The notes under the pieces were generated by a model. It was not told where the DNA came from and did not search any database. It saw only the letters and a list, made by a program, of their open reading frames with translations. This document shows positions 24,717 through 40,806 of a stretch of DNA of 64,000 nucleotides, piece by piece; positions within the stretch are counted from its first letter, which is position 1; each line of letters begins with the position of its first letter. Location: the NCBI GenBank assembly GCA_049322955.1, contig JBMOPU010000012.1:83581-147580 (forward strand), in the 5' to 3' direction. The DNA comes from Patescibacteria group bacterium (lineage in GTDB: Bacteria; Patescibacteriota; Microgenomatia; UBA10105; UBA927). Both the position numbers and the translations under genes were made by a program.

Positions 24717-25361
24717 CTATTTTGATGGATCGGCAAACTGCATAACCGCATGCCGTAACAATCTGCGTTTTGACGCCGCAAGCTTGGGCATACCTGCAAG
24801 CTGTGTCCACCATTCCGTACTCGCCACCGCTTCGGCATTTGCCGCGAGACGCCGGGATTGCGGGAGAGTAAGTTGTTTTTTGGAATATTTCAACCATTTC
24901 TTTGCTTCCGTATATCCCTGTTCGACAAGAATATTTTCCTGAAATAGCTGATCCAATATATCCGCATCTTTTACCACTTTTGCCGCAAGCGACTTTTGGG
25001 CAAGAAAGGTATGATAGTGCGTAAGAAAGATACTACGGATAGTTGGCGGCAACGGATGGATGATATCGGTAAAGGCGTCGGTTTCCGCCTTTGTTTGATA
25101 CCGCTTATGCACGAAATTGGCATCACCAACCCGTGATTCCGCAATATCATGAATGAGCGCCATGAGGCTTACCTCCTGCAAATTCGCTCCGACCTCTTCC
25201 GCAAGCAGTAAGGCGATCATTGTGACATTGTATGAGTGGTCGGCTATGGATCCCATGTCGACGTTGAATGTTTGGTAAGAACTTCTTCTGATACGCTGGA
25301 GTGAACGAATTTCATTGATAAAGTTCACAACGCCGTTATCTTTTTTGAATGCTTTTTTCAT
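24717..25361 (-). CDS. HD-domain phosphohydrolase (YfbR-like 5'-deoxynucleotidase family).
   Basis: Has ADHSYNVTMIALLLAEE...LIHDIAESRVGD (H...HD...D). It overlaps the 3' end of the upstream QueC-like gene. Confidence 0.7.
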   Translation of the reverse strand: MKKAFKKDNGVVNFINEIRSLQRIRRSSYQTFNVDMGSIADHSYNVTMIALLLAEEVGANLQEVSLMALIHDIAESRVGDANFVHKRYQTKAETDAFTDIIHPLPPTIRSIFLTHYHTFLAQKSLAAKVVKDADILDQLFQENILVEQGYTEAKKWLKYSKKQLTLPQSRRLAANAEAVASTEWWTQLAGMPKLAASKRRLLRHAVMQFADPSK

Positions 25362-26301
25362 ACGAGTGTTGCAGGGCAACGGTTATTCTTCTGGTGGCGT
25401 TGTGTATTTTACTTTGGACCATTCCCATCGGCAAGTCTGTCCAATAGACCGTGTGATCGCATATTCCCGCCCGTTCGTACGCCTCTTTTCTTGTCCGACA
25501 TCCGTCACATCTCCCGCAATGGTACACCCCTCCCCAGTAACAACTCCATGTTTTTTCAAGCGGCATGCCATAATGATTCGCCCATTGGATAAGCGTTTCT
25601 TTTTCCCAAAAATATCCGCACTCTCTTTCCAGCGCGAGTGAGGCGATCTGCCATGACGAATCGTTGGTAAGTACGATAGTATTCATGGTCACCGAACGAA
25701 GCGCGGTGAATGTTTCATACGCCATACCGACCCCGTCCTTGGCGATAAAACTGTTAAATACGGTACGTATCCTTACTCCCCGGGTTAACTCCAGGTATCG
25801 GGCATATTGGACCGCATACCCGTTCAATAGCGATGAGTACATCGGGATCCCGTGTCGTTGAAGCGTTGTAGTATTGAAAATAGCGTCCGCAACGTCCGTA
25901 ATTCTCCATCGGATTTCCCGTGGCGGTATCGGTGCATTGATGAGTATCGGCTGATGATACTGCGAAGGGTATTGCTTCTGGAAAAAATCGGTAAAAAAGT
26001 AAAACGATCGAAGCTCCTTCGCAACGCGTCGATGTCCTCTTTTTATATATAACGGGTAAATATGCAATCCGTATTTTCTCATAAGAATGTCGCTAGCGAC
26101 CGTGCTGTCCAGACCGCCGGAAGAGAGCATGATAACCGGCGTGTTGGGTCGGGGCATGCGGAATATATATCCGCGTGTTTTCAATAAAAACGATTCGATA
26201 CTTGCGACCGCCGGCATGTTTTCCAGCGGGCGTTTTTGTAAAAGCATTGTGATGGTATTTTTCTGTTTTCGGGGAAGGATATAAGCGGTCTGCTTCTTCA
26301 T
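25336..26301 (-). CDS. QueC/ExsB-family PP-loop ATP pyrophosphatase with an N-terminal extension. Either an N-acetyl-sugar amidotransferase (WbpG/PseA-like) or a 7-cyano-7-deazaguanine synthase homolog.
   Basis: Has VIMLSSGGLDSTV (SGGxDS) and a C-terminal CYWGGVYHCGRCDGCRTRK (Cx7CxxCxxC, a QueC-type Zn motif). 321 aa. Confidence 0.65.
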   Translation of the reverse strand: MKKQTAYILPRKQKNTITMLLQKRPLENMPAVASIESFLLKTRGYIFRMPRPNTPVIMLSSGGLDSTVASDILMRKYGLHIYPLYIKRGHRRVAKELRSFYFFTDFFQKQYPSQYHQPILINAPIPPREIRWRITDVADAIFNTTTLQRHGIPMYSSLLNGYAVQYARYLELTRGVRIRTVFNSFIAKDGVGMAYETFTALRSVTMNTIVLTNDSSWQIASLALERECGYFWEKETLIQWANHYGMPLEKTWSCYWGGVYHCGRCDGCRTRKEAYERAGICDHTVYWTDLPMGMVQSKIHNATRRITVALQHSYEKSIQKR

Positions 26302-26318
26302 GGAGAATAGTAATTTTT

Positions 26319-27008
26319 TTACAGATGCGCGGTATGGATTTTTCCGTTTTTAAGCTCAAACACCCGTTCGCAATTTCGTCGAATATACTCAAGCCAGTGC
26401 GATGCTATGATAAATGTCTTGTTTTCTTTAATCAACTGCTTTAAGACGCGCTGGGATTTGCGGCGAAATTCGGCATCCCCTACTCCAAATCCCTCGTCGA
26501 GTATAAAAATATCGGGATTGGATTGTATTGCAACGGAGAATCCGAGACGCAACATCATCCCCTCGGAATAGGTATAAAGAGGAACATCGACAAACTGACC
26601 GATATCGGCAAATGCGATGATCTCGTTGAGTTTTTGATCGATCGTCCGTTTGGACATACCCAACAGCATGCCGTTCAGATAAATATTCTGAATACCCGAC
26701 AGTTCGGGATGGAAGCCTGCCTCTAGATCAATAAGCGATACGACTTTTCCATATCGTTTTACCGTTCCGCTAGTGGGAGTGGTAATCCCCGCAATTATTT
26801 TGAGCAGGGTTGTTTTTCCACTGCCGTTCGGCCCGATTATTCCTATTTTTTCCCCTCGCTTCACCGTCAAATTTATTTTTTGGAGTGCCCAGAATGTTTC
26901 GTGATCGTGTTTCACGAACTTTTCCACGAGCGTTGGCTTTTCATGATGGATTTCATATTTCTTGCTTACGTGATTTAACTCGATGGCAATATCGTATGTT
27001 GTGTTCAT
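26319..27008 (-). CDS. ABC transporter ATP-binding protein (Wzt/TagH-like polysaccharide exporter).
   Basis: Walker A GIIGPNGSGKTTLLKIIAG, signature LSGIQ... region, Walker B ILDEGF. Confidence 0.85.
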   Translation of the reverse strand: MNTTYDIAIELNHVSKKYEIHHEKPTLVEKFVKHDHETFWALQKINLTVKRGEKIGIIGPNGSGKTTLLKIIAGITTPTSGTVKRYGKVVSLIDLEAGFHPELSGIQNIYLNGMLLGMSKRTIDQKLNEIIAFADIGQFVDVPLYTYSEGMMLRLGFSVAIQSNPDIFILDEGFGVGDAEFRRKSQRVLKQLIKENKTFIIASHWLEYIRRNCERVFELKNGKIHTAHL

Positions 27009-27772
27009 AACCAGTCATCAAATGTTTTGCTTTCTTTTTCAAAGATCAGTATTCCCAAAAAGGCAACCCCAAGGATAACGCTGATGTTACTCACAAGCAT
27101 TGCGGGGCCCGGCGCGGGAGCGCCGATGAGCGCATGTTGAAACAACTGGACAATCGAGGTGAGGGGATTAATCCGCCAAAGCCACAATACTTCCTTGGGT
27201 AACTGGATAAAAGAGTAGACGATCGGTGTCGCGTAGAACCATACGATCAGGATAGCCTGAACAAAAAAATTAACGTCTCTGAATCGAACGTTGAGCGCCG
27301 ACGTCAAAAGCGAAATTCCGGAAGTAAATATGAGTAGTAACGCCAGGGCAATACCACTATACACGGGCGCAAGCGGTGTCATCGTGCCCAGCAAAAGTGT
27401 GGGAAGAAGAAAAATAAGAAACCCCGCGGTGAAATGGATAAAGTTTGAAACAACGATGGATAGAGGAATAATACCTCGCGGAAACGCTGACTTCTTTACG
27501 AGTGAACGTTCATACACAATCGAGGGAGTTGCCTTGGTTAACGAAGTTGAAAAAAAATTCCAGGTAAGCAGGCCGATATATAAATAATAGTAATAATGCG
27601 GAATCGGCTCCTGTACAAAGAGGGTAAAAATAAAACCGATCACCATCATTTGAAGCAACGGATTGATGATCAGCCAGAGAAAACCGAATGCGGTGTTTTT
27701 GTAGCGGGACTGCAATTCCTTTTGGGTCATTCCCCACAAAAGTTCAAAAAAATGCCGGGTATCCGTTGTCAT
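27005..27772 (-). CDS. ABC-2 type permease (Wzm/TagG-like).
   Basis: 255 aa with 6 transmembrane segments. It overlaps the ATPase gene by 4 nt, a typical ABC-2 permease arrangement. Confidence 0.8.
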   Translation of the reverse strand: MTTDTRHFFELLWGMTQKELQSRYKNTAFGFLWLIINPLLQMMVIGFIFTLFVQEPIPHYYYYLYIGLLTWNFFSTSLTKATPSIVYERSLVKKSAFPRGIIPLSIVVSNFIHFTAGFLIFLLPTLLLGTMTPLAPVYSGIALALLLIFTSGISLLTSALNVRFRDVNFFVQAILIVWFYATPIVYSFIQLPKEVLWLWRINPLTSIVQLFQHALIGAPAPGPAMLVSNISVILGVAFLGILIFEKESKTFDDWL

Positions 27773-27961
27773 GGGGAGTATTATAATAGACCATCTATCA
27801 AATATGATACAGTAAATTCTTCTTCAGTAACGTGCCATGAGTGAAACAGACCCGTGATGAGGGAAAAAGATGGCGCCAGATGCACAAAAAAATACTTTAT
27901 CACTGCGGGCACGGTATGTCATGCTGGCGCATGCCCTAAGGAAATTGGTATAGTATCGCAT

Positions 27962-28573
27962 ATGCGGATCATGTATTGGCTACATTATATTGCCATAGTC
28001 GCTCTCTTTATCCTGTCGTTGCCGTTTCAAGTCGGCATTGCGCTGCTCATCCTGTTTATTGACGGATCACCGGTAATTTTTTGTCAGCGACGGGTCGGGA
28101 AGGACGGGAAATCCTTCATGATGTATAAGTTCCGTACCATGGTGAACGGTGCCGAAAAAAAACAGCCCAAATATATACGCCTGAATGAATCGCAGGGACC
28201 CGCCTTCAAAATTCATGACGATCCCCGCTTCACGAAGCTGGGCAAGTTCTTAAGCCATACGGGGCTTGATGAATTGCCGCAACTTGTGAATGTGCTGGAG
28301 GGTTATATGACCCTCATCGGTCCCCGCCCGCTCCCCGTAGCTGAGGCAAAGAAGTTAAAAAAATGGATGAAAGCACGGGAAAAAATGCGCCCCGGCATCA
28401 TTTCCCCCGCCATACTCACGGGGAAGTATCATGAGAATTTTGATGCCTGGATGAAAAGTGATATATCATACGTGAACCAAAAAGACCCGTTTCGTGATGT
28501 GCGGCTCTTTTTCAAAAGTTTTCCGTTTTTGGCGAAATTATTTCTCCGAAGTATCCGCGAGAGTAAGTCTTGA
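27962..28573 (+). CDS. Bacterial sugar transferase, small monotopic phosphoglycosyl transferase (PglC/WbaP C-domain-like); initiating enzyme.
   Basis: Has LLILFIDGSPVIFCQRRVGKDGKSFMMYKFRTM...DELPQLVNVLEGYMTLIGPRPLP. The track ORF starts earlier at an alternative codon; the first ATG is at 27962. Confidence 0.85.
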   Translation: MRIMYWLHYIAIVALFILSLPFQVGIALLILFIDGSPVIFCQRRVGKDGKSFMMYKFRTMVNGAEKKQPKYIRLNESQGPAFKIHDDPRFTKLGKFLSHTGLDELPQLVNVLEGYMTLIGPRPLPVAEAKKLKKWMKAREKMRPGIISPAILTGKYHENFDAWMKSDISYVNQKDPFRDVRLFFKSFPFLAKLFLRSIRESKS

Positions 28574-28610
28574 CAACGTCTGTGTATATATATGTATACT
28601 ATATACGTAA
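28571..28610 (+). promoter_or_regulatory. Sigma-70-like promoter candidate (TTGACA, 17 nt spacer, then TATACT) upstream of the 28747 gene.
   Basis: cTTGACAacgtctgtgtatatatatgTATACTata is read directly from the sequence. A second TTGACA/TATAAT pair at 28710-28731 has only a 10-nt spacer. Confidence 0.4.
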
Positions 28611-28746
28611 TGCGCGACAGCAATTTTTCCAATCGGACAATTTTCTTTTTATAGTATATAGGTCGCTTTATACCCGGTTAACCACCGGGTTTTTTATAGG
28701 AATAGAGTTGACAACCGTTGATTTATAATGTTACTATAGGTTAATT

Positions 28747-30870
28747 ATGGTGGCTCCTGAGGCACTACATATACCGGAGAAAAGCATACACGAAGCGTTA
28801 ATAAACGACGCGAGACGCCCCAAGTTGGTCGAGACACTCCCCGATTGGATGCAACGAGATACCCACGTACGATTCGGTGACCATGACATTGAACTGGAAA
28901 CAAACAGACTCCCGCGCATCGAAGGCGTCATGGGGGTTGTTAACCTCCTGCGGAAAGGCCAAGCGGAACTGAACCGGCCCTCAGGAGCCGTTACGCACGA
29001 GACGGCACAAGACAAGGAAGCTGGTGTGTTGCTTATCAAAAGCATTCTTGAAATAGCCGGGCTTGCGGCGGGTAGTGCCGCTATGAAAAAGGGTCGGGGC
29101 AAAAACGCCCTGCTTTTTTTGGGAGGGCTTGGGCTATTTGCCGGAGGCGGCATCGGGCTCACGATGGATTTATCGGGCTGTGCCTCTGCGATAGCGACCG
29201 AAGTGCCCCCGGGCACGCCGACCGCGCTTCCTGCGACGGAAATGCCCCCACAAGTTACCGTAACGCCGCTCAGCAACGAGGTTGTGGTGGGAACGCCTTC
29301 TTCCGCACCCGAGACCCCCGCTCCCATCCAAGGGGCATCATATCCTACCGAGGTATCGGTTCTTGAATCGCCGCTTGTGTATAGTTACGGAGGCGAGGCG
29401 GGACGCCAAAACATGAACGAATATACCCGGCAATTATTTGACCGTTATGTTGCGGAAATGAGTCGCTCCGGGTTCCTTACGGGTACCACCGTTGACCAGC
29501 TCTATCGATCCTTTGACCAGGGATACGATTTTAAACTTTTCACTACGGATCAGGGGCTTACCTGGTTAGTGCAAAGCAAATCTGATGGGAGCTTCTTGGT
29601 GCCAAAAGATCTGGACGGACAAATTTTTCGTGATTTACAACTTCCGTATAATTACCTGTTTGACTCAGGAGTAGCCGTTGAGGTTGGGCTTGATAACTTT
29701 AATTTCCAACGGTTTCAGGCAAACAAAGTAGGGTTTGTCGGCGCATGGCCGGTGCTTGTCACGGTTGACGGACAAGGTGTTCCGGTGAGTTGGGTGAACA
29801 TGGAACAGGGTGGTGCCGCAACCCCGATTACGGTAGCCTCTACAGTAGAGGCACCTACCCATGCATCGACCGATGTCCCCGACTCCCGTGTCGCCCTTAC
29901 GGTGGGAGCCGAGACGTTTCGAGTAACCACCGACGTTCGGTATTCGGAGTCGATCACCGATGTCAACATCGATCCTGCAAAGGCACAAAAAATCGGTGAA
30001 GTATTGGTCTATACCGATGCCGCAGGACGACTACTCTGGAATGAGCACCTGCAGGCATGGGTGCCGGAGTTTGGAACCAGTATGGACTATAAAACTCCCG
30101 AAACCGCACCAGTAGTACCGTTTGATGCGTATTATGACGGATCGAAGCCTGATGCCAGTACGTATATACCAAGTTCAGCCGCTTTGAGTGATATGTTGTA
30201 TATAGCCGAACACCCAGACCTGATTTCTCCTGATGCGTCATATCCCTACTATAGAGTGGCACTCTTCGGCAATGATAAAGCGAGGATAGGCTACGAAATT
30301 GTTCTTACTGGACCAAATCAATATCTTATTAGTAACGAAAACAAGACGGAGGTAACAAACAAAAAGCCGTTACCGTTTAATTATTTTGGTGTTCAGCAAA
30401 CAAAAGATAAAGACGGCAACATAATTTACGTTATAAAAAAGGCTAACTGGAATCCGATGCCGACAAATGAGCGAAATATCCTTGTGACTAATATGGGATT
30501 TGATAAGTCTGCATATGATGAATGGTTTAAATATCCATTAATTATGAGATACATTGAAGCCGATTCCTCAGTGACTGGTGGTGAGCTTGTGCCTCTTTTT
30601 CTTTCACCTGACGGACAGTTTCAGGAAACGAATCCGAATCTTTTTTATCTTGAAACTCAGCCGGCGAATCCTCATGTGGCCGCACTTGTGAGTAAAGATC
30701 TGACTGATATTTTTAGTCAGGAGGTCCAGACCAGTATTGATCTCCTGTATCCGCAGATAAATAAGCCTTTTGACGAAAAAACGAACCCAGGAAGCTATCT
30801 CATAGGAGTCTTACCGTCTGGGTTAACAAATATGATTCACTATACAGGAGTCCAGACGTTTTATCCCTAA
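28747..30870 (+). CDS. Large cell-surface protein, no recognisable family. The internal ATG at 29083 gives a perfect lipoprotein signal peptide (MKKGRGKNALLFLGGLGLFAGGGIGLTMDLSGC). The C-terminal ~190 aa are compositionally distinct.
   Basis: One long ORF of 707 aa. Hydrophobic stretch plus lipobox L-S-G-C at residues 113-145. Pro/Thr-rich linker. The 3' 570 nt are conspicuously AT-rich compared with the rest of the gene. Confidence 0.6.
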   Translation: MVAPEALHIPEKSIHEALINDARRPKLVETLPDWMQRDTHVRFGDHDIELETNRLPRIEGVMGVVNLLRKGQAELNRPSGAVTHETAQDKEAGVLLIKSILEIAGLAAGSAAMKKGRGKNALLFLGGLGLFAGGGIGLTMDLSGCASAIATEVPPGTPTALPATEMPPQVTVTPLSNEVVVGTPSSAPETPAPIQGASYPTEVSVLESPLVYSYGGEAGRQNMNEYTRQLFDRYVAEMSRSGFLTGTTVDQLYRSFDQGYDFKLFTTDQGLTWLVQSKSDGSFLVPKDLDGQIFRDLQLPYNYLFDSGVAVEVGLDNFNFQRFQANKVGFVGAWPVLVTVDGQGVPVSWVNMEQGGAATPITVASTVEAPTHASTDVPDSRVALTVGAETFRVTTDVRYSESITDVNIDPAKAQKIGEVLVYTDAAGRLLWNEHLQAWVPEFGTSMDYKTPETAPVVPFDAYYDGSKPDASTYIPSSAALSDMLYIAEHPDLISPDASYPYYRVALFGNDKARIGYEIVLTGPNQYLISNENKTEVTNKKPLPFNYFGVQQTKDKDGNIIYVIKKANWNPMPTNERNILVTNMGFDKSAYDEWFKYPLIMRYIEADSSVTGGELVPLFLSPDGQFQETNPNLFYLETQPANPHVAALVSKDLTDIFSQEVQTSIDLLYPQINKPFDEKTNPGSYLIGVLPSGLTNMIHYTGVQTFYP

Positions 30871-30941
30871 AAGCATAAAGAGAGCCTCCCCTGCCCTTAG
30901 TCTAATTGCATCTTCGTTCGGCTTTTGTTACAGTTTTCTTA

Positions 30942-32552
30942 ATGAGGAAGTTATTGTTTTTTATCGTATTGCTTTTCCTCTTTGTGCCGTTCGCTTCTGT
31001 ATCCGCGCAATATGTCACCCCTACGCAGGGTATCACCCCCACCGCTTGTCAACCGAGAACTTGTGATCAGCCTCCACCCAGTAATTGTAGTACTCTTCCA
31101 AATACAACATGGGGATCATTCCCTGTCTGTAATCATGGTGCTGACGGGTGTGGAGCGGTGTGGAGTTGTACGCAGACAACGGGTTGTACGGACGATGCCT
31201 CTTGGTCAGATTGGTCAGGATGTGCACCGGGAATAGAAGGAGAAACGAGGTACTGTATTAACTCAGCCTGTTGTGGTAATGCCGCCGAAGCACGTCTTTG
31301 TGATCCCAGTCCGACGGGACCCGGAGGACCGGGAGGAAACCCAACTGATCCGCCCGGGGTACCAACGGCCACACCCAACACTCCGCAGATCGGTGATATT
31401 CAGGCTCGAGCCGTTCAAGTAGATCCCGCCGATACGTCGTGTGCCGCCATCCGGGCAATTCCCACGACCGACGGCGAAGTGAACGGCGCGGTGCATCAGT
31501 TCACTCCCTCATCCGCTAGCCAACCGGCCGCCCAAACACAAACAGGTGCAAATTACGTAACCTTTGCCAATGTTGCGGCAGGGACCTACACGATAGATCC
31601 CAGTCCCCCAAGCGCGGATTGGGCATACGTACGGGCTTGCTCCAGAAACCTTGACAATGGTACCAATGCCGAAGGACTTTCACGCAACCTGCCCAATGCC
31701 GCGGTGCTCCGATGGGATATCGGATACACTTTAGGAACCGCGTGGGTGCAAGCTCAGGGAGGTGACGTCTATAGTTCGGGAACCATCCGTTCCTATCTTC
31801 CGTCGGTGACGCCAAGAGTATTTATCACCGACGGGACGGGCGGCTATCCCGGCATCATGACGTACGGCACAAGCTTTGATTTTGACAGCGATCCGTATGA
31901 AACGGGAGCGACTATCGTATCTGCCGACAACTGGCAGGTCAACGCAAGCCGTGCGAGCGTCAATTACTATGACTATTTTTACCGACGGTTCGGTGCCCCG
32001 ACGACTCCGACAACCGCCGCTCCGTTTGATAACCTCACCGCGGTTACGCAACCCGCGTCAAACTGTACGGCATCGACCTGTACTCCCTACTATGTCGTCG
32101 GAGATATGACGACCAGCGGCGCCTGGTCGGTGGGTGCCGATGAGCGGATAGTAATTCTTGTGAACGGTAATTTAACTATCGGCGGACGAATCAATATTAC
32201 GGGTAACGGCTTTATCGCATTCATCGTCAACGGGACAATCACGGTTTCGGATACCGTGGGTACGACGGCCGCTTCCACAACCCCCGTTGTCGAGGGCATT
32301 TATATCGCGACAACCGAAACTCAAACCGGGAGCATCAATACGGGCGAAAGTTTAGCGGCGGGAACTGCCCGATTTGTCGGAAAGGGCATGTTCGTCTCAA
32401 ACGGCTTCCTTCTTCAACGGGATCTACAGGGTTTTGGCTCGGGAAATACCGCAAATGCCGCGGAGTTATTCGTATATAATCCTCAGCTCTTGCTTACGAT
32501 GCCCGACAGTATGAAGGAGTTATCCGTCACCTGGCAGGAGGTATCACCGTAA
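30942..32552 (+). CDS. Secreted protein with a Sec signal peptide, an N-terminal Cys-rich module, a Pro/Gly linker, and a beta-helix-like C-terminal domain; no recognisable family.
   Basis: MRKLLFFIVLLFLFVPFASVSA then QYV. There are 14 Cys in about 90 aa. Linker PSPTGPGGPGGNPTDPPGVPTATPNTPQ. Repetitive VILVNGNLTIGGRINITGNGFIAFIVNGTITVSD. Confidence 0.6.
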   Translation: MRKLLFFIVLLFLFVPFASVSAQYVTPTQGITPTACQPRTCDQPPPSNCSTLPNTTWGSFPVCNHGADGCGAVWSCTQTTGCTDDASWSDWSGCAPGIEGETRYCINSACCGNAAEARLCDPSPTGPGGPGGNPTDPPGVPTATPNTPQIGDIQARAVQVDPADTSCAAIRAIPTTDGEVNGAVHQFTPSSASQPAAQTQTGANYVTFANVAAGTYTIDPSPPSADWAYVRACSRNLDNGTNAEGLSRNLPNAAVLRWDIGYTLGTAWVQAQGGDVYSSGTIRSYLPSVTPRVFITDGTGGYPGIMTYGTSFDFDSDPYETGATIVSADNWQVNASRASVNYYDYFYRRFGAPTTPTTAAPFDNLTAVTQPASNCTASTCTPYYVVGDMTTSGAWSVGADERIVILVNGNLTIGGRINITGNGFIAFIVNGTITVSDTVGTTAASTTPVVEGIYIATTETQTGSINTGESLAAGTARFVGKGMFVSNGFLLQRDLQGFGSGNTANAAELFVYNPQLLLTMPDSMKELSVTWQEVSP

Positions 32553-32571
32553 TTTTGATACAATAAGGGGC

Positions 32572-33969
32572 ATGACCTTCGAACAGCTTCGGTTGAAGCA
32601 CCCACGACTCATTTATAAGCGATACAACGTAACCAAATCCGATGCGGCGATTACGATAGAACATGAATTTCTGCTTGAGCCTGATATACCGTTTCGCGCA
32701 TCCACTACCATTCCCCATACGGGTGAGTTTCACGAGGAGGCGTTTGCCCCCTATGCGTTCCATTTAGGGCTGATTGAAGCGGTAAGCTATTGGAAAACGG
32801 CATGCCCCCGTGAATTTGTAGTAGAAGCGGGATATCTTGACGCTACGCAACTGCGGTTTTGGTACGATCTTTTCATCCATGGGTTGGGCGAGTTTTTCTA
32901 TCGAAATGCCATAGACTTCACCGCTCCCGAATTTCTTACCATTCGTACTACGGGTGAAGCGTTGCCTCCGAGCATTCCGTTTTCCCCCGCAGATATCGCC
33001 TCAACGGATCTGGTACTCGTCGGCGGCGGCAAGGATACTGCAGTGACGTTGGGAATGTTAAAAAATAGCGATAGAACAATCCAAACCATGATTGTTAATC
33101 CGACTGACGCGGCACGAAAATCCGTTGCTATCGCCCACTTCTCCTCCCCTCTTATCGTGAGGCGGGTAATGGATCCGCAACTTATGATCTTAAATAAGTC
33201 GGGGTATTTAAACGGGCATACCCCATTTTCCGCCTATCTTGCATTTCTTGGTATAGCGGTTGCATTTCTCCATAGAAATACTTCGGTGATTGTCTCCAAC
33301 GAAAGAAGTGCAAACGAAGGAAACGTTGTCTATAAGGGAATGGAAATAAATCATCAATACTCCAAAAGTTTCCGCTTTGAAACGCTGTTTCGCCGGTATA
33401 TTGCGGATGTATTTCCCGCGGCGGCTAACTACTTTAGCATGCTTCGTCCGTTAAACGATATTCAGATCGGGTTACTCTTTGCAAGGCTTCCGGAGTTTTT
33501 TCCCACTATCAGGAGTTGCAACGCCGGAAGTAAAAAAGGTATTTGGTGCGGGAAGTGCTCCAAATGTGCCTTCACCTACCTTGTCCTTTCTCCGTTTATC
33601 GCCGAAGCGGATCTTCTTCGCATATTCGGGAGTGATTATTTTCATGATCCCGATATCATCCAATATGTCCGTGAGCTCGTCGGGTTAACCCCGGTGAAAC
33701 CCTTTGAATGTGTGGGCACCCGGGATGAGGCAAAACTCTCGTTGCTTCTTGCGATTTCCCGGTATAAAAAAGAATCACGGGAAATACCCGAGGGCTTGCT
33801 TACGATAAAAAGTGATCTCGGTCTTACCGAAGAAGATACCTTGTTTCTCAAGGAACGGGTATTTGATGCGTGGGGTGATACCTTTAATCTCCCGCCGGAG
33901 CATATGAGTCTGCTTCGACTTACTTGGGAGAGAGCGCGAGAAAACTACGAGAAAACCGCACAACCATGA
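32572..33969 (+). CDS. Hypothetical protein with a PP-loop-like motif and a Cys cluster. Candidate MurL-like UDP-MurNAc-L-Ala-L-Glu epimerase, based on synteny with murD.
   Basis: 465 aa with LVLVGGGKDTAV (an AANH/PP-loop-like variant) and CNAGSKKGIWCGKCSKC. Its stop overlaps the murD start as ATGA. Confidence 0.35.
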   Translation: MTFEQLRLKHPRLIYKRYNVTKSDAAITIEHEFLLEPDIPFRASTTIPHTGEFHEEAFAPYAFHLGLIEAVSYWKTACPREFVVEAGYLDATQLRFWYDLFIHGLGEFFYRNAIDFTAPEFLTIRTTGEALPPSIPFSPADIASTDLVLVGGGKDTAVTLGMLKNSDRTIQTMIVNPTDAARKSVAIAHFSSPLIVRRVMDPQLMILNKSGYLNGHTPFSAYLAFLGIAVAFLHRNTSVIVSNERSANEGNVVYKGMEINHQYSKSFRFETLFRRYIADVFPAAANYFSMLRPLNDIQIGLLFARLPEFFPTIRSCNAGSKKGIWCGKCSKCAFTYLVLSPFIAEADLLRIFGSDYFHDPDIIQYVRELVGLTPVKPFECVGTRDEAKLSLLLAISRYKKESREIPEGLLTIKSDLGLTEEDTLFLKERVFDAWGDTFNLPPEHMSLLRLTWERARENYEKTAQP

Positions 33970-35333
33970 ACGAAATACACGGCACATCAGCACTCATTGT
34001 CGGATTCGGCCGGGAAGGTAAAAGCGTGTTGGCATGGCTCAATACGCACTATCCGAACCTTCGTATCGGAGTTGCCGATCGGACATTTGCACCCGACCAT
34101 ATGTCAGGAAGCACAAAGGATGGGGTGACGGTGTATAACGGAGAAGGATACCTTTCGCATTTGGCTGAGTATGACACGGTTATTCGAAGCCCGGGCGTAT
34201 CCCCGTATCTTCCCGAGTTTATTGCATATAAGAAGGGACCCGGTCATCTGACGAGCGCAACTAATATTTTCTTTTCGAAAGTCAAAGGGATTACGGTGGG
34301 AATAACCGGTACCAAGGGGAAAAGTACCACGTCAAGTCTTATCGCACACCTTTTGAAATTTCACTATACCGATGTCCGCCTCGTCGGGAATATCGGTATC
34401 CCCATGTTGGATTCCCTCGATACCGCTACATCAAAAACGGTGTTTGTCATGGAGCTTTCGAGTCATCAGCTCTATGATTGCCGGTATAGCCCGCAGGTGG
34501 CGGTGATGTTGGGAATCGTATCAGAACATCTGGATTACTATCCGGATCTCATAAGCTATGCGCATGCGAAAGCAAATATCATAGCGCATCAGACAAGCGA
34601 TGGGTTGTTAATTTATAATCCGGCTCATACCATCCTTCGTACGCTTGCCGCCTCCCATCGGGGAAAGAAAATTACGTATGGTTTGGAGAAGGCCGACGAA
34701 CACCACGTCACGATAAAAGATGGGATAATCACCGTGAATCAAAAAGGACGATTGGTATCGGTGATACCGATGACACAAGTTCCCCTTCTCGGAAATCAGG
34801 AGAATATTCTCGCCGCCGTCTCCGCGGCTTCGGTACTGGGTGTATCACCCGAAGTGATTGCGCAGGCAATTACCCCGTTTCAATCACTTCCCCACCGTCT
34901 CGAATACGTCGGGGAATTTTTGGGCATTCGATTCTATAACGACTCGCTCGCAACGATTCCCCAAGCGACGATTCATGCGCTTTCCGCACTCGGTCCCGAT
35001 GCAAGCACCCTTATTGCCGGAGGCTACGATCGACATCTGGATTTTGCCGAACTCGGAGCATATCTGCGGAGTCATCCGATAAAAACGCTTATTCTTTTTC
35101 CCGACACCGGCGAAAAAATATGGGAGGCAATCGGCCAAGTACAGGCCGGGGCAATTACCAGATTTACCGTGAACACGATGAAAGAAGCGGTACAACTGGC
35201 ATATGACAACACTCCGCAAGGAGCAATTTGTCTGCTCTCACCGGGAAGTGCAAGCTATAATCTATTTCGTGATTATGCCGATCGGGGAGATCAGTTTAAG
35301 CACTGGGTAAGGGCTTTTGGTGGTGCGCAGTGA
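33966..35333 (+). CDS. murD: UDP-N-acetylmuramoyl-L-alanine--D/L-glutamate ligase (MurD family).
   Basis: Has LIVGFGREGKSV...GITGTKGKSTTSSLIAHLL (Mur ligase P-loop) and the C-terminal Mur ligase domain. Confidence 0.85.
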   Translation: MNEIHGTSALIVGFGREGKSVLAWLNTHYPNLRIGVADRTFAPDHMSGSTKDGVTVYNGEGYLSHLAEYDTVIRSPGVSPYLPEFIAYKKGPGHLTSATNIFFSKVKGITVGITGTKGKSTTSSLIAHLLKFHYTDVRLVGNIGIPMLDSLDTATSKTVFVMELSSHQLYDCRYSPQVAVMLGIVSEHLDYYPDLISYAHAKANIIAHQTSDGLLIYNPAHTILRTLAASHRGKKITYGLEKADEHHVTIKDGIITVNQKGRLVSVIPMTQVPLLGNQENILAAVSAASVLGVSPEVIAQAITPFQSLPHRLEYVGEFLGIRFYNDSLATIPQATIHALSALGPDASTLIAGGYDRHLDFAELGAYLRSHPIKTLILFPDTGEKIWEAIGQVQAGAITRFTVNTMKEAVQLAYDNTPQGAICLLSPGSASYNLFRDYADRGDQFKHWVRAFGGAQ

Positions 35334-35386
35334 CCCTCCTTTTATCGTGACTTGTAGAAAACTCGGTAATTCGGTATACTATTGCT

Positions 35387-35524
35387 ATGCCAAAGCGAAC
35401 CTACCAACCAAAGAAACTCAAGCGCAAACGAGTCCACGGATTCCGTGAACGGATGAAAACCGTGAAGGGCAGACTGGTATTGAAGCGTCGCCGATCTATC
35501 GGGCGAAAAAAGCTTACTGTCTAA
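35387..35524 (+). CDS. rpmH: 50S ribosomal protein L34.
   Basis: [45 protein letters not shown] (45 aa), not in the ORF track because it is under 60 aa. It sits upstream of rnpA in the canonical arrangement. Confidence 0.95.
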
Positions 35525-35531
35525 TTATTTC

Positions 35532-35864
35532 ATGCTTCCACAATCTCTGCGTGTCCCCTCTCGGCTCATTTTGCCATTGCTCCGTCGCGGCAAAAAGATC
35601 AGAGAAGGTTCGCTTGAACTGGTCTTTGAACGAACATCGGCAAAAAGCGCATTTGCCTGTATCGTCCCCGTGAAAGTTGATAAGCGTGCAACCAAGCGAA
35701 ACCGCATGAAGCGTCTTGTTCGGGAAGCGGTAGCCTTGCTGTTACCGGAAATAACCGTTGACTTCATCGGAATTATTGTCGTCCGGGGGAAGATCCCCGA
35801 CATGCAACAAGAGGTTGTTTCCCTTGTTCGCAACGCCCTGATAAAGGCGGGGTTGCATCAATAA
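35532..35864 (+). CDS. rnpA: RNase P protein component.
   Basis: 110 aa basic protein, ...[15 protein letters not shown]..., located between rpmH and yidD. Confidence 0.85.
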
Positions 35865-35865
35865 T

Positions 35866-36111
35866 ATGAAAACCACACTCCTCGCCGCCATACGCTGGTA
35901 TCAAAAATATCTTTCTCCCGATACCGGAGTATTCCGTTCGCTCTGGCTTGTTGGAGCGGGGTGTCGGTATCAACCGACATGTAGTGAGTATATGTATCAA
36001 GCGGTGAATCGCTATGGTATAATCTACGGATTGTGGTTAGGGGTGCGAAGGATCATGCGCTGTCACCCCTTAGCCCGCGGAGGATTCGATCCTGTTCCTT
36101 CGTCCCGATAA
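35866..36111 (+). CDS. yidD: Membrane protein insertion efficiency factor YidD.
   Basis: Has [11 protein letters not shown]...[19 protein letters not shown]...[17 protein letters not shown]. Confidence 0.9.
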
Positions 36112-36115
36112 TATT

Positions 36116-36919
36116 ATGACAAATCCTACCCTGTGGAATCAGTTGCTCGTTTGGCCCATCATCAACCTTCTCATGGTGTTTTACAAGTTTTTTGAATGGC
36201 TCAATATTCCAGGACCGTTGGGATTTGCGGTGATTGCTCTGACCGTTGCCATCCGATTTATTCTGTATCCCCTCATGGGAGCACAGATGAAATCCGCAAA
36301 AAAGATGCAGGCACTTAAGCCTCATTTGGATGCGTTAAGCGCAAAGCACAAGGACGATAAAAAAGCACTGCAACAGGCGCAAATGGATTTATATAAAGCG
36401 CATAACATAAATCCCGCCGCAGGATGCCTGCCGCTTCTCGTGCAAATGCCCGTACTGATCGCGCTCTACAACGTGTTTTATCAGGTTTTGCAAAACGGAG
36501 ATCTTGCAAAGCTTGTCAATGATCTTAATCAAGTGGCGTACACGTCCTCTCTCAAAATTGGTACATTGGATCTTTCGTTTTTCGGAACAAATCTCGGGAT
36601 TAAACCCAGTCAATGGCAGACGCACGGATATTGGTTGCTTCTTATTCCCGTTATTACCGCGGCGCTTCAATGGTGGCAAAGCAAATTGGTGATGCCTCCC
36701 GCACCGGCGCCGGGATTGGTGAAGCATGCAACCGGGAAAGATGCGGAAGAAAAAAAACCGGAAGATACCGCGCTTGAGATGCAGAGACAAATGGCAATGA
36801 TAACACCGATTATGTTTGGTATGTTCGCCTACCAGTTTCCATTGGGATTGGCGCTCTACTGGAACGTTTTCGGGCTTTTTGGTATTATTCAGCAGCTTCA
36901 AATAAATAAGGAGGCATAA
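36116..36919 (+). CDS. yidC: Membrane protein insertase YidC (short form).
   Basis: 267 aa with conserved YidC/Oxa1 core helices (AGCLPLLVQMPVLIALY...FPLGLALYW). Confidence 0.85.
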   Translation: MTNPTLWNQLLVWPIINLLMVFYKFFEWLNIPGPLGFAVIALTVAIRFILYPLMGAQMKSAKKMQALKPHLDALSAKHKDDKKALQQAQMDLYKAHNINPAAGCLPLLVQMPVLIALYNVFYQVLQNGDLAKLVNDLNQVAYTSSLKIGTLDLSFFGTNLGIKPSQWQTHGYWLLLIPVITAALQWWQSKLVMPPAPAPGLVKHATGKDAEEKKPEDTALEMQRQMAMITPIMFGMFAYQFPLGLALYWNVFGLFGIIQQLQINKEA

Positions 36920-36921
36920 CT

Positions 36922-37377
36922 ATGGAAGACATACAAGTGGTTACCGGGGTAGTCGAAGAGCTTATTCAAAAGCTTGAAATAGTCGGTACGGTTTCCGTAA
37001 CTACCGACGAAACGGACGCGTTTCGTATCAATATTGCCACCGAAGAAACGGGGCTCCTCATCGGACATCACGGGAAAACACTTGAAAGTCTCCAGGTTAT
37101 TTTGGGGGTGATTGTTTCCAAAAAGCTCGGACGATGGGTAAAAGCGTACGTAAATGTTGGTGACTATCGTGAAAAACGCGAAGAGGCATTAATGCATATG
37201 GCACAACGTGCGGCCGATCGTGCCCTCGCATCGGGAAGACCTGTCGAGCTTTCCCGACTTTCCCCGGCAGAACGAAGAATAATTCATTTAACACTTTCCG
37301 GTGATGAACGCATTGAGACGGAATCAATGGGTGAAGGAGATGGTCGCATTCTGCTCGTCAAACCCAAAAGCGTATAA
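36922..37377 (+). CDS. jag: Jag/KhpB-like RNA-binding protein (KH plus R3H).
   Basis: R3H region LSPAERRIIHLTLSGDERIETESMGEGDGRILLVKP. Preceded by an AAGGAGG RBS. Confidence 0.8.
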   Translation: MEDIQVVTGVVEELIQKLEIVGTVSVTTDETDAFRINIATEETGLLIGHHGKTLESLQVILGVIVSKKLGRWVKAYVNVGDYREKREEALMHMAQRAADRALASGRPVELSRLSPAERRIIHLTLSGDERIETESMGEGDGRILLVKPKSV

Positions 37378-38729: not shown

Positions 38730-38842
38730 CGGCATCGGCTTACCACTACACGTGCGTATGCATCGCGTCCGGACATGCGAGTGTCGACACATTTTCATAG
38801 CGTGAGAGGAAGAAACGCACCGGTATCTGTTACAATGAGCCC

Positions 38843-40141: not shown

Positions 40142-40235
40142 ATTCGATTATCCCCGAAACGGGGAACATATAGTAACACGCATTCCTACACGGTTATGAA
40201 ATAGCCGGGTAGTCAAAAACCAAAGGAGGTTTTTT

Positions 40236-40682: not shown

Positions 40683-40806
40683 AGTTGTTCGTGAAGGGTA
40701 TGTTCCTCATGTGAGATGCCAATACGATTACATCGTAGGCATGCCGCAACTCTGTTGTTTTCGGTACGGCTGTTTGTCATAATGGTTTTAGAGATATTTT
40801 CCCTCT

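What the first reader, a model, noticed from the sequence alone, without database searches (positions are those of the whole stretch)
30942..32552. Adjacent secreted Cys-rich / Pro-Gly linker / beta-helix-like protein: a candidate two-gene surface (attachment?) module with the upstream lipoprotein
Clear Sec signal peptide. About 90 aa with 14 Cys (CQPRTCDQ...CSTLPNTTWGSFPVCNHGADGCGAVWSCTQTTGCTDD...CAPG...YCINSACCGNA...LCD) suggesting a disulfide-knotted binding module. A PSPTGPGGPGGNPTDPPGVP linker follows. Then about 380 aa with repetitive hydrophobic-N/G-x-T patterns (VILVNGNLTIGGRINITGNGFIAFIVNGTITVSD) reminiscent of right-handed beta-helix or fibre domains. Together with 28747-30870 (same strand, 71-nt gap, promoter upstream) this looks like a dedicated surface structure. 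For an episymbiotic or small-genome bacterium it could be a host-attachment apparatus.
Basis: partly seen in the sequence, partly recalled or inferred. Interest (0 to 1): 0.65.

Follow-up and report, generated by a model that had tools for sequence, protein, structure and literature searches.

The report
Secreted cysteine-rich surface protein, lipoprotein partner
This is a real secreted protein from a small-genome (Gottesmanbacteria-like) bacterium: a fast-evolving cysteine-rich tip sits on a very conserved stalk-and-coil body, it is encoded next to a membrane-tethered lipoprotein, and it belongs to a very large family that nobody has characterised; it most likely sits on the cell surface and binds something, but what it binds is unknown.

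Summary
ORF 30942-32552 (+) encodes 536 aa: a Sec signal peptide, a head with 12 Cys (not 14) in aa 36-120, a Pro/Gly/Thr linker, then about 390 conserved residues.

AlphaFold2 models aa 150-530 at pLDDT above 90. It shows a CnaB-like Ig domain with a conserved disulfide (C167-C233), a cap region, and a short beta-solenoid. The solenoid-like repeat covers about 110 aa, not 380. No enzyme fold or enzyme family was found.

The conserved C-terminal module defines a large uncharacterised family: 3,265 clusters at 50% identity. It is almost always C-terminal and usually ends in W-x-E-[VA]-x-P. The N-terminal modules are swapped freely (Cys-rich, TSR-like, fn3, Big_2, Hint).

The upstream gene (28747-30870) encodes a lipoprotein-like protein. 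Its only Cys sits in an invariant lipobox, preceded by an unusual 112-aa extension. A lipobox protein lies directly upstream in 17-18 of 21 loci.

Sequence divergence peaks at the gene junction, across the lipoprotein C-terminus and the head, and the two parts co-vary in type.

The family also occurs in MAGs labelled Chloroflexi/Anaerolineae, which weakens the host-attachment reading. Best reading: a non-enzymatic two-gene surface binding module. Interest is moderate.

The parts
28672..28700 (+). Terminator-like hairpin plus T-run that ends the preceding sugar-transferase gene
   Evidence: ACCCGGTTAACCACCGGGT TTTTTATAGG. This is a consensus match only.
28708..28737 (+). Best sigma-70-like promoter match of the region, just upstream of the lipoprotein gene
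   Evidence: TTGACA-18-TACTAT, 10/12 matches with TG. The number of promoter-like sites in the region equals the shuffle expectation, so this is weak evidence.
28747..30870 (+). Upstream partner gene: 707-aa lipoprotein-like membrane-tethered protein
   Evidence: It has 17 homologues only and no Pfam or NCBIfam hit. It has a single Cys (C145), which is invariant. AlphaFold2 gives pLDDT 80-95 for aa 380-707, with no PDB fold match.
28747..29082 (+). Conserved 112-aa extension that precedes the lipoprotein signal; unusual, presumed cytoplasmic
   Evidence: It is conserved at the protein level in 17 homologues. L001 has no possible internal start codon at the equivalent position. It is modelled at low confidence.
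29083..29181 (+). Lipoprotein-type signal MKKGRGKNALLFLGGLGLFAGGGIGLTMDLSG-C145; the Cys codon is 29179-29181
   Evidence: It has a basic n-region, a hydrophobic h-region and the lipobox L-S-G-C. This Cys is the only one in the protein and in 15 of its 16 homologues.
30244..30867 (+). Fast-evolving C-terminal ectodomain of the lipoprotein (aa ~500-707)
   Evidence: Identity to L001 falls to 14-38% here, against 78-86% in the centre. dN is 0.28 against 0.086 for the preceding part. Its type co-varies with the head type of the downstream gene.
30942..32552 (+). Target gene: 536-aa secreted modular protein (mature form about 53.5 kDa, pI 4.25)
30942..31007 (+). Sec (SPase I type) signal peptide, aa 1-22, with the predicted cleavage VSA|QY
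   Evidence: Read by eye; no predictor was available.
31008..31301 (+). Variable Cys-rich head, aa 23-120, with 12 Cys; contains FPVCNH and a TSR-like WSDWSGC...ETRYC motif
   Evidence: AlphaFold2 pLDDT is 50-70. It has no Pfam hit, and TSP_1 is only sub-threshold in two relatives. dN is 0.19 against 0.044-0.053 in the body.
31302..31388 (+). Pro/Gly/Thr-rich linker, aa 121-149
   Evidence: pLDDT is below 50.
31389..31751 (+). Ig-like (CnaB / prealbumin-like) domain, aa 150-270, with conserved Cys167 (nearly invariant) and Cys233 (invariant), read as a disulfide
   Evidence: Foldseek gives weak matches to Spy0128, BcpA, CnaB2 and SdrB-type domains. The disulfide is inferred from conservation, not shown.
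31752..32549 (+). Cap region (aa 271-380) plus short beta-solenoid (aa ~381-511) plus C-terminal segment; the most conserved part of the family
   Evidence: The DUF7305 relation is borderline in relatives. Fold similarity to DUF3494 ice-binding proteins is weak.
32532..32549 (+). Conserved C-terminal tail W-Q-E-V-S-P at the very end of the protein
   Evidence: 199 of 248 family members end in W-x-E-[VA]-x-P. The tail is modelled at pLDDT below 50.
32572..35333 (+). Downstream same-strand MurL-like epimerase and MurD-like ligase genes; no terminator in between (context, possibly co-transcribed)
   Evidence: The adjacency is conserved in Gottesmanbacteria but not in the Chloroflexi-labelled loci.

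Best explanation
The gene encodes a secreted, non-enzymatic, modular cell-surface protein that works as a unit with the lipoprotein encoded just upstream.

Proposed sequence of events:
1. The protein is exported by Sec and cut after Ala22. This is read from the sequence.
2. The 12 head cysteines and the C167-C233 pair form disulfides outside the cell. This is inferred.
3. The mature protein consists of a fast-evolving TSR-like Cys-rich head, a flexible Pro/Gly/Thr linker, a CnaB-like Ig domain, and a short beta-solenoid that ends in the conserved tail WQEVSP. The architecture is shown by the model and by conservation.
4. The Ig-solenoid body is the family-defining chassis. Its very strong conservation and its fixed C-terminal position suggest that it docks on a conserved envelope component or on itself. 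This is inferred.
5. The head, together with the equally fast-evolving C-terminal ectodomain of the membrane-tethered lipoprotein, forms the variable part that contacts ligands. The co-variation and the divergence peak at the gene junction are shown; physical contact between the two parts is inferred.

The ligand is unknown. It could be a substrate, another cell, or a host.
For: Architecture:
- Searches give the domain layout.
- AlphaFold2 gives 349 residues at pLDDT of at least 90.

No enzyme signal:
- Pfam, NCBIfam and PHROGs are empty for the protein.
- PDB sequence searches with both the protein and the family profile are empty.
- Foldseek against PDB gives nothing at E of 1e-3 or better. 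The top matches are Gram-positive pilin/adhesin Ig domains and ice-binding beta-solenoids.

Family:
- 3,265 representative clusters match at E of 1e-3 or better.
- The core is nearly always at the C-terminus.
- 199 of 248 members end in W-x-E-[VA]-x-P.
- The N-terminal parts are adhesion-type and interchangeable: Cys-rich, fn3, Big_2, GBS_Bsp-like, Laminin_G_3, Hint.

Rates:
- Against P0002 the head is 67% identical and the solenoid 98%.
- dN is 0.19 in the head against 0.044-0.053 in the body.

Partner:
- The upstream protein has one Cys, invariant, in a lipobox.
- Lipobox proteins lie directly upstream in 17-18 of 21 loci, although many share no detectable sequence similarity.
- Four head types pair with four lipoprotein C-terminal types. 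This includes a mosaic lipoprotein in L009 whose C-terminus matches the head type.
- Identity is lowest at the gene junction.

Both mature proteins are acidic, with pI 4.25 and 4.46.
Against: - There is no experimental or expression evidence, and no ligand is known.
- The co-variation of head and lipoprotein C-terminus could come simply from physical linkage: one recombination tract could span the junction.
- The sample is small (about 10 independent loci in 4 types), and related genomes share both parts by descent.
- In fusion proteins (TM-'207' domain-head-core) the conserved core is distal to the membrane anchor. That fits poorly with the core being an anchor.
- The head is modelled only at pLDDT 50-70.
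Confidence: 0.5

Rival explanations
1. It is a carbohydrate-active or cell-wall-active enzyme. On this view the beta-solenoid body binds and cuts or modifies the cell's own envelope glycan or peptidoglycan, and the head acts as a targeting module.
For: - Many beta-helix proteins are polysaccharide lyases or hydrolases (established knowledge).
- In Gottesmanbacteria the gene sits between a glycan-synthesis cluster (Bac_transf, Wzm/Wzt, GT4s, Wzy_C) and the MurL/MurD genes.
- Several polar residues are nearly invariant.
- Extreme conservation of the body is also typical of enzymes.
Against: - There are no Pfam, NCBIfam or PDB sequence hits.
- No pectate-lyase, GH28 or other beta-helix enzyme appears among the PDB Foldseek matches. 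The single lyase hit (3njx) has E 0.36 and TM 0.13.
- The solenoid has only about 4-5 rungs.
- The MurL adjacency is lost in the Chloroflexi-labelled loci.
Confidence: 0.15
2. It is a structural surface glycoprotein, S-layer-like or a major envelope protein. On this view it is O-glycosylated by the adjacent glycan cluster, and the conserved body self-assembles.
For: - The window holds the same enzyme families as the S-layer glycosylation (slg) clusters of Gram-positive bacteria: a WbaP-like initiating transferase, Wzm/Wzt, Wzy_C-domain proteins and glycosyltransferases (slg composition from PMC2943079).
- The protein is acidic (pI 4.25), Thr/Ser/Pro-rich and has 9 NxS/T sequons.
- The strongly conserved body and tail would fit self-assembly.
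Against: - No SLH or other known anchoring domain was found.
- Bacterial S-layer proteins are typically almost Cys-free (own knowledge), whereas this head has 12 Cys.
- The glycan cluster is equally compatible with an ordinary surface polysaccharide.
- The adjacency is absent in the Chloroflexi-labelled loci.
- Nothing was tested directly.
Confidence: 0.15
3. It is a dedicated host-attachment apparatus of an episymbiotic bacterium.
For: - The closest relatives are Candidatus Gottesmanbacteria (Patescibacteria) with chromosomes of about 1 Mb.
- Variable heads and fast-evolving partners are what one expects of host-contact proteins.
Against: - The same three-part module occurs in six higher-GC MAGs labelled Chloroflexi/Anaerolineae.
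- No host, pilus or symbiosis genes lie in the window.
- As far as I know, the lifestyle of Gottesmanbacteria is not established (own knowledge).
Confidence: 0.1
4. It is a pilus-associated protein, such as a minor-pilin-like or tip protein.
For: - Relatives give weak hits to DUF7305 and DUF2572. I only vaguely recall these as occurring in pilus-related proteins; this is own memory, not verified.
- One locus (L017) has a PilX_N protein and PilM two genes downstream.
- Foldseek top matches are Gram-positive pilins.
Against: - None of 248 family members has a class III (prepilin) signal, whereas 160 have Sec-type N-termini.
- There is no LPXTG sorting signal; the C-terminus is WQEVSP.
- The window holds no pilus genes.
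- The family profile shows no similarity to the L017 PilX_N protein.
- The pilin matches cover only the generic Ig domain.
Confidence: 0.05

Closest known systems
Pfam DUF7305 (PF23981), an uncharacterised domain
   Same: About 20 of the 120 listed relatives carry the precomputed PF23981 label. On re-scanning, one relative passes the gathering score (P0095, 30.0 bits against a cutoff of 27) and others fall just below (26.8 and 25.3 bits). The match covers the solenoid rungs, about aa 366-447.
   Different: The window protein itself gives no hit at E up to 1. Matches cover only positions ~36-142 of the 185-position profile. The Ig domain, the cap region and the conserved C-terminal tail are not part of DUF7305. 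No function and no literature exists for DUF7305.
Gram-positive surface adhesins and pilins with CnaB-type stalk domains (Spy0128, BcpA, SpaC, SdrB-like)
   Same: They share an Ig-like stalk domain between a distal binding module and the cell-proximal end, a modular design and an acidic secreted protein. These are the best Foldseek PDB matches.
   Different: The matches are weak (E 5e-3 or worse, TM about 0.2). This protein has no LPXTG/sortase signal and no evidence of isopeptide bonds, and it has a disulfide instead. Its conserved end is a beta-solenoid with a free C-terminus.
DUF3494 ice-binding-like beta-solenoid proteins (for example FfIBP, PDB 4nu2; Typhula IBP, PDB 5b5h)
   Same: Both have a short beta-solenoid with a flanking helix and T/N/G-rich flat rungs. 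Structural similarity is TM 0.37-0.45 when normalised to the target.
   Different: The E-values are not significant (0.1-0.4), and there is no sequence match to the Pfam family. The helix is only 8 residues long, and nothing suggests ice binding.
Thrombospondin type 1 repeat (TSR) adhesion modules
   Same: The head carries W-S-x-W-S-x-C ... R-x-C within a dense Cys framework. Relatives carry CSVSCGGGTQT-type motifs and give sub-threshold TSP_1 hits.
   Different: The window's head has no Pfam hit. The hits in relatives are 18.5 and 14.8 bits, below the cutoff of 21.6. The head is modelled at low confidence.
S-layer glycoproteins with adjacent slg glycosylation clusters (Geobacillus, Paenibacillus)
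   Same: An acidic secreted surface protein gene lies beside a cluster with a WbaP-like transferase, Wzm/Wzt, Wzy_C-domain proteins and glycosyltransferases (PMC2943079).
   Different: It has no SLH or other anchoring domain and has a Cys-rich head. There is no evidence of lattice formation or glycosylation.

Membership tests
Pfam DUF7305 (PF23981) | Whole-protein score at or above the gathering cutoff of 27 bits | tested here: not met
   The window protein has no hit at E up to 1. Relatives score 30.0 (P0095), 26.8, 25.3, 20.4, 19.7, 19.1, 18.0, 17.5 and 13.2 bits. The family is therefore at best a distant fringe of DUF7305.
Type IV pilins / minor pilins (PilX-like) | Class III (prepilin) signal with G|F/M-T-L-I/L-E and an N-terminal hydrophobic helix | tested here: not met
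   None of 248 family members has the motif, and the target has an SPase I-type signal.
Type IV pilins / minor pilins (PilX-like) | Encoded with pilus assembly genes | tested here: not met
   The 64-kb window has no pil genes. Only 1 of 21 loci (L017) has PilX_N/PilM nearby.
Sortase-anchored Gram-positive adhesins/pilins | C-terminal LPXTG-type motif followed by a hydrophobic segment and a basic tail | tested here: not met
   The protein ends ...VTWQEVSP, and 199 of 248 relatives end W-x-E-[VA]-x-P.
Right-handed beta-helix polysaccharide lyases/hydrolases (pectate lyase-like, GH28) | Sequence or fold match to the family, with a long (7 or more rungs) helix and a conserved catalytic site | tested here: not met
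DUF3494 ice-binding-like proteins | Pfam match, and a beta-solenoid packed against a long alpha-helix | tested here: inconclusive
   There is no Pfam match. Foldseek to 4nu2, 5b5h and 8x1l gives E 0.1-0.4, probability 0.2-0.6 and TM 0.33-0.45 per target. A DUF3494 viral protein matches at E 0.17.
Thrombospondin type 1 repeat (PF00090) | Score at or above 21.6 bits; W-x-x-W / R-x-R layers with 6 Cys | tested here: not met
   The head alone gives no hit at E up to 1. Relatives P0111 and P0081 score 18.5 and 14.8 bits. The WSDWSGC motif is present.
Bacterial lipoprotein (upstream gene 28747-30870) | Lipobox [LVI][ASTVI][GAS]C after a basic n-region and a hydrophobic h-region | tested here: met
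   The signal is MKKGRGKNALLFLGGLGLFAGGGIGLTMDLSG-C145. This Cys is invariant and is the only Cys in the protein and in 15 of its 16 homologues.
Bacterial lipoprotein (upstream gene 28747-30870) | The signal lies at the N-terminus of the precursor | tested here: not met
   The signal starts at residue 113. The preceding 112 aa are conserved as protein in 17 homologues, and L001 has no start codon at the equivalent site. Partners in other lineages carry the lipobox at residues 16-285.
Bacterial lipoprotein (upstream gene 28747-30870) | Lgt/Lsp processing machinery present and the Cys actually lipidated | not testable with these tools
   Only 64 kb of the genome is available, and there are no biochemical data.
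Diversity-generating retroelement target | A nearby reverse transcriptase and a template/variable repeat pair | tested here: not met
   There are no repeats of 20 nt or more with meaningful identity in 26000-37000 and no RT in the window. bAvd-like genes next to the family in L007 and L017 lack an RT.
S-layer proteins | A known cell-wall anchoring domain (SLH, CWB2 and similar), or demonstrated lattice formation | tested here: not met
   No such Pfam domain was found. Lattice formation cannot be tested here.

The most novel reading that the evidence does not exclude
The conserved Ig-solenoid body with its invariant WxEVxP tail is the chassis of a previously undescribed surface-recognition system. 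The system spans at least two phyla and has thousands of variants. In it, the swappable Cys-rich head and the C-terminal ectodomain of an adjacent lipoprotein form a co-diversifying pair, exchanged together as one cassette across the gene junction, that determines what the cell binds (other cells, hosts or particles). The lipoprotein is unusual in being N-terminally extended. Its conserved pre-signal domain might link this surface pair to the cytoplasm.
Probability: 0.15. Interest if true: 0.7.

Novelty: new variant of a known kind. Interest (0 to 1): 0.42.

Why it matters
Candidate-phyla (Patescibacteria) genomes are small and full of secreted proteins of unknown function, and how these cells touch their surroundings or partners is poorly understood.

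This finding puts a name and an anatomy on one very large uncharacterised family, with 3,265 clusters at 50% identity. The anatomy is a variable head, a conserved Ig-solenoid body and an invariant C-terminal tail.

It also shows that the family travels with a fast-evolving lipoprotein partner, and that divergence is concentrated at the junction of the two genes.

If the head and the lipoprotein ectodomain do form a binding pair, the family would be a ready-made catalogue of surface specificities in Gottesmanbacteria and Anaerolineae. It would also give a concrete target for structural and binding studies.

If instead it is an ordinary structural envelope protein, the value is mainly better annotation.

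Tried and rejected
Searches that found nothing:
- Pfam, NCBIfam and PHROGs on both proteins.
- PDB sequence search with the protein and with the core profile.
- tblastn of the core against plasmids and phages, and an IMG/VR scan; there are no relatives, so the family is not phage- or plasmid-borne.
- Literature searches for DUF7305, PF23981, DUF2572, and Patescibacteria/Gottesmanbacteria cysteine-rich proteins.
- The last homologue search, run with the head alone, found only one word-sharing candidate and no hit. I therefore could not test whether the head occurs outside the family.

Fold searches:
- Foldseek of the target model against PDB and BFVD gave only weak matches.
- AlphaFold2 of the lipoprotein gave a confident C-terminal half, but Foldseek found no PDB match.

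Ideas tested and rejected:
- Pilin: no prepilin signals, and no similarity to the PilX_N protein of L017.
- DGR target: no repeats and no RT.
- Polymorphic toxin: here the variable end is the N-terminus and the constant end is the C-terminus, which is the reverse of toxin architecture.
- Paralogues in the window: none.
- The small '207' TM partner: absent from the window in all six frames.

Analysis that did not work:
- dN/dS cannot show positive selection because synonymous sites are saturated (dS above 1.4), so only dN contrasts are usable.
Full report
**1. The observation**

The + strand carries an ORF at 30906..32552. The ATG at 30942 gives 536 aa. This start agrees with homologues that begin MRKL... 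and with public gene calls of the identical locus (536 aa).

- **Signal peptide.** The N-terminus MRKLLFFIVLLFLFVPFASVSA|QY has the three parts of a Sec/SPase I signal: a basic n-region, a hydrophobic core (Kyte-Doolittle 2.66) and an AxA-type site. I read this by eye, because no signal-peptide predictor was available.
- **Cys-rich head.** Thirty-nine other ORFs of the window average 0.78% Cys, and none has more than 6 Cys in any 98-aa stretch. The binomial P is about 2e-11.
- **Linker.** DPSPTGPGGPGGNPTDPPGVPTATPNTP follows at aa 121-149.
- **Quoted motif.** VILVNGNLTIGGRINITGNGFIAFIVNGTITVSD is at aa 404-437.
- **Gene pair.** The 71-nt gap to 28747-30870 is correct. A terminator-like hairpin (28672-28690) is followed by the best promoter-like site of the region (28708-28737). 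The totals of such sites equal the shuffle expectation, so this is weak evidence.
- **Downstream.** No terminator-like site separates the lipoprotein gene, the target and the downstream MurL-like and MurD-like genes.

**2. Structure**

AlphaFold2, run with a 102-sequence alignment, gave mean pLDDT 84, with 349 residues at 90 or above.

- The head is modelled at pLDDT 50-70 and the linker below 50.
- Residues 150-270 form a beta-sandwich. It holds Cys167 (nearly invariant) and Cys233 (invariant), which I read as a disulfide.
- Residues 271-380 form a cap region with one short helix.
- Residues ~381-511 form about 4-5 rungs of a beta-solenoid.
- The last six residues are again of low confidence.

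Foldseek against PDB found nothing at E of 1e-3 or better.
- The best matches are Ig-type domains of Gram-positive pilins and adhesins (Spy0128, BcpA, CnaB2, UafA, SpaC), at E 5e-3 or worse and TM about 0.2.
- Weaker still are ice-binding DUF3494 solenoids (4nu2, 5b5h), at TM 0.37-0.45 per target and E 0.1-0.4.
- No glycoside hydrolase or pectate-lyase-type helix appears with any support.
- BFVD gave the same picture.

**3. Family**

The protein has no Pfam, NCBIfam, PHROGs or PDB sequence match. A word-indexed search nevertheless found 175 homologues. Those that carry names are Candidatus Gottesmanbacteria or 'Patescibacteria group', which belong to the Microgenomates group of the Patescibacteria.

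Only the C-terminal ~72% of the protein is shared. A profile of that core (alignment A2) was searched against 1.84 billion representatives. It matched 3,265 clusters at E of 1e-3 or better, 2,234 at 1e-10 and 527 at 1e-30.

- In nearly every member the core ends at the protein's C-terminus.
- 199 of 248 members end in W-x-E-[VA]-x-P. Most exceptions are fragments or near-variants.

The N-terminal parts are 100-700 aa long and freely exchanged. They include:
- Cys-rich modules with up to 40 Cys;
- WSxWSxC and CSVSCGGGTQT motifs that recall thrombospondin type 1 repeats (TSP_1 reaches only 18.5 and 14.8 bits in two relatives, below the cutoff);
- CGNGxC...C..C..DCG.C repeats;
- fn3, Big_2, GBS_Bsp-like, Laminin_G_3 and Hint domains.

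Some relatives touch Pfam DUF7305: one scores above the cutoff at 30.0 bits, and others score 25-27 bits. Weak DUF2572 hits also occur. The window protein itself does not hit DUF7305. No literature exists on either domain.

**4. Rates**

Against close orthologues the head diverges much faster than the body.
- Against P0002 the head is 67% identical and the solenoid 98%.
- Against P0004 the head is 66% identical and the solenoid 93%.
- Non-synonymous divergence against L032 is 0.19 in the head, 0.053 in the Ig domain and 0.044 in the solenoid.
- Synonymous sites are saturated, so positive selection cannot be assessed.

**5. The upstream gene**

The 707-aa product has only 17 detectable homologues and no family hit. 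It contains a textbook lipoprotein signal, MKKGRGKNALLFLGGLGLFAGGGIGLTMDLSG-C145. C145 is invariant. It is the only cysteine in the protein and in 15 of its 16 homologues.

The unusual point is that this signal begins at residue 113.
- The preceding 112 aa are conserved as protein across all homologues.
- L001 has no possible start codon at the equivalent position.
- I leave this unexplained. The extension is presumably cytoplasmic, and the rest of the protein is tethered outside.

AlphaFold2 models aa 380-707 confidently (pLDDT 80-95), but Foldseek finds no PDB relative.

**6. Is the pair a unit?**

I collected 21 informative loci.

In Gottesmanbacteria the order is conserved: Wzm(-), Bac_transf(+), [variable genes], core-family gene, MurL, MurD-like, rnpA, yidD, yidC. 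The variable slot holds one of the following:
- a large protein of the window's family or of a family related to it by profile (E about 1e-70 over aa 135-370; hhalign probability 100%);
- unrelated-looking large proteins (663, 714, 753 or 837 aa);
- in one clade (L005, L018, L019), small secreted and TM proteins.

In 17-18 of the 21 loci the upstream protein carries a basic/hydrophobic/lipobox signal followed by a Pro/Thr/Ala-rich linker. The lipobox lies at residues 16-285.

Six MAGs labelled Chloroflexi/Anaerolineae, with GC 0.52-0.60 against 0.44-0.49 for the Gottesmanbacteria loci, also carry the module. There it reads canonical lipoprotein, then a ~215-aa TM protein, then the core-family protein, with no MurL nearby.

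The ~210-aa TM protein family lies directly upstream of the core gene in 8 loci, often with overlapping stop and start codons. It is fused to the N-terminus of at least three family members (P0025, P0066, P0083). It is absent from the window.

**7. Co-variation**

Strong head similarities define four types: A (window, L001, L012), B (L002, L011, L021), C (L006, L009) and D (L014, L020).

The lipoprotein C-terminal domains fall into the same four groups.
- The L009 lipoprotein is a mosaic. Its centre resembles the window's protein (48% identity), but its C-terminus resembles L006's, and this matches the type C head.
- In 50-aa bins, identity between the window and L001 runs 60, 52, 66, 86, 84, 84, 78, 62, 64, 54, 32, 66, 38, 36, 14 along the lipoprotein. 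It then runs 38, 64, 64, 88, 88, 98, 92, 94, 94, 86, 94 along the target.

Divergence is therefore centred on the gene junction. This fits two exposed, functionally coupled domains. It equally fits a single recombination tract, and the sample is small.

**8. What it most likely is**

I conclude that this is a secreted, disulfide-stabilised, non-enzymatic surface protein.
- Its conserved Ig-solenoid body is a chassis, docking on a conserved envelope component or on itself.
- Its head, together with the lipoprotein's ectodomain, is the variable ligand-contacting part.
- My confidence is about 0.5.

What is shown: export signals, domain architecture, family size, head swapping, the rate contrast, the partner's lipobox, synteny and co-variation.

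What is inferred: disulfides, surface retention, docking, head-lipoprotein contact, and any ligand.

One observation pulls the other way. In the TM-fusion proteins the conserved body is the membrane-distal end.

**9. Rivals**

- **Envelope-glycan or peptidoglycan enzyme (0.15).** It is favoured by the neighbourhood and the invariant polar residues. It is disfavoured by the complete lack of family or fold matches and by the loss of the MurL adjacency in the Chloroflexi-labelled loci.
- **Structural surface glycoprotein (0.15).** The window's first 28 kb plus 37-40 kb hold the same enzyme families as S-layer glycosylation clusters (PMC2943079), and the protein is acidic and Thr/Pro-rich. But there is no anchoring domain, and the Cys-rich head is atypical.
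- **Host-attachment apparatus (0.1).** This is a special case of my reading. It is weakened by the module's occurrence in Chloroflexi-labelled MAGs.
- **Pilus-associated protein (0.05).** No family member has a prepilin signal, the window has no pil genes, and there is no similarity to a neighbouring PilX_N protein.
- **Rejected outright.** A DGR target, a polymorphic toxin (the variable end is the wrong one), and phage or plasmid origin.

**10. Novelty and interest**

Modular secreted adhesin-like proteins are a known kind. This family is catalogued at most as the fringe of a DUF and has no literature.

Its particular combination of features is not described:
- a swappable Cys-rich head;
- a CnaB-like domain and a short solenoid with an invariant free C-terminal tail;
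- an N-terminally extended lipoprotein partner;
- a divergence peak at the gene junction.

I rate it a new variant of a known kind, with interest 0.42. It is real, large and anatomically clear, but it has no demonstrated function, and it is one of many uncharacterised surface families in candidate phyla.

Noticed in passing
window 32572-35333 (+): A MurL-like UDP-MurNAc-L-Ala-L-Glu epimerase (NCBIfam MurL, 226 bits, well below the equivalog cutoff of 700; Pfam MurL_N/MurL_epimerase_C in relatives) is followed by a MurD-like ligase. This is the gene pair of the alternative D-Glu route of peptidoglycan synthesis described in Xanthomonas (PMC8788868). It is conserved next to the target across Gottesmanbacteria loci.
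   Followed up: partly
window 28747-29181 (+); also L002, L004, L006, L007, L009, L011, L015-L017: Lipoprotein-type signals (basic region, hydrophobic region, lipobox with the protein's only Cys) sit 110-285 residues from the N-terminus, behind extensions that are conserved as protein. I know of no explanation for a lipobox signal this far inside a precursor.
   Followed up: partly
L005 6264-7004, L007 6376-6999, L014 5985-6626, L020 5988-6638, L022 5940-6608; proteins P0025, P0066, P0083: An uncharacterised ~210-aa single-TM protein family lies immediately upstream of core-family genes, often with overlapping stop and start codons. In several proteins it is fused to their N-terminus. It is absent from the window and has no Pfam hit.
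   Followed up: partly
L007 8478-8870; L017 8237-8593: A small four-helix-bundle gene (23S_rRNA_IVP, with a weak bAvd hit in L007) lies directly downstream of the core-family gene in two unrelated loci. No reverse transcriptase is nearby.
   Followed up: partly
L017 8598-10603: A PilX_N-domain protein and PilM (with further pilus-like ORFs) lie two genes downstream of a 731-aa core-family protein. This is the only locus with pilus genes nearby.
   Followed up: partly
proteins P0074, P0099, P0144, P0154: Hint/intein-like (PT-HINT, Hint, Vint) domains lie in the N-terminal variable part of some family members, upstream of the conserved core. Autoprocessing of these surface proteins is conceivable.
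   Followed up: no
window 1-28573 and 37386-43272: A large envelope-glycan gene set surrounds the pair: DegT aminotransferase, several GT4 glycosyltransferases, two Wzy_C proteins, two flippase-like Polysacc_synt proteins, a GDSL esterase, Wzm/Wzt, a Bac_transf initiating transferase and an 821-aa DUF4012 protein. The composition resembles protein O-glycosylation (slg) clusters as well as ordinary surface polysaccharide clusters.
   Followed up: partly
window 25336-26301 (-): A 321-aa QueC-like protein (the Pfam QueC match covers only the C-terminal part; there is a weak ThiI/PP-loop hit at the N-terminus) lies next to the Wzm/Wzt transporter. In related genomes the same position is called APS_kinase-like.
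   Followed up: no
L004 10736-12529: A 597-aa secreted protein with a very Cys-rich C-terminal third and no Pfam hit lies just downstream of the core-family gene in a Gottesmanbacteria genome where the MurL adjacency is absent.
   Followed up: no
window 51974-52834 (-): A tyrosine recombinase (Phage_integrase plus SAM-like N-terminal domain) of XerC/D or integrase type lies about 20 kb downstream of the finding.
   Followed up: no
window 28734-29327 (-): A 197-aa antisense ORF overlaps the start of the lipoprotein gene. It is most likely spurious, because the + strand frame is conserved as protein in 17 homologues.
   Followed up: no
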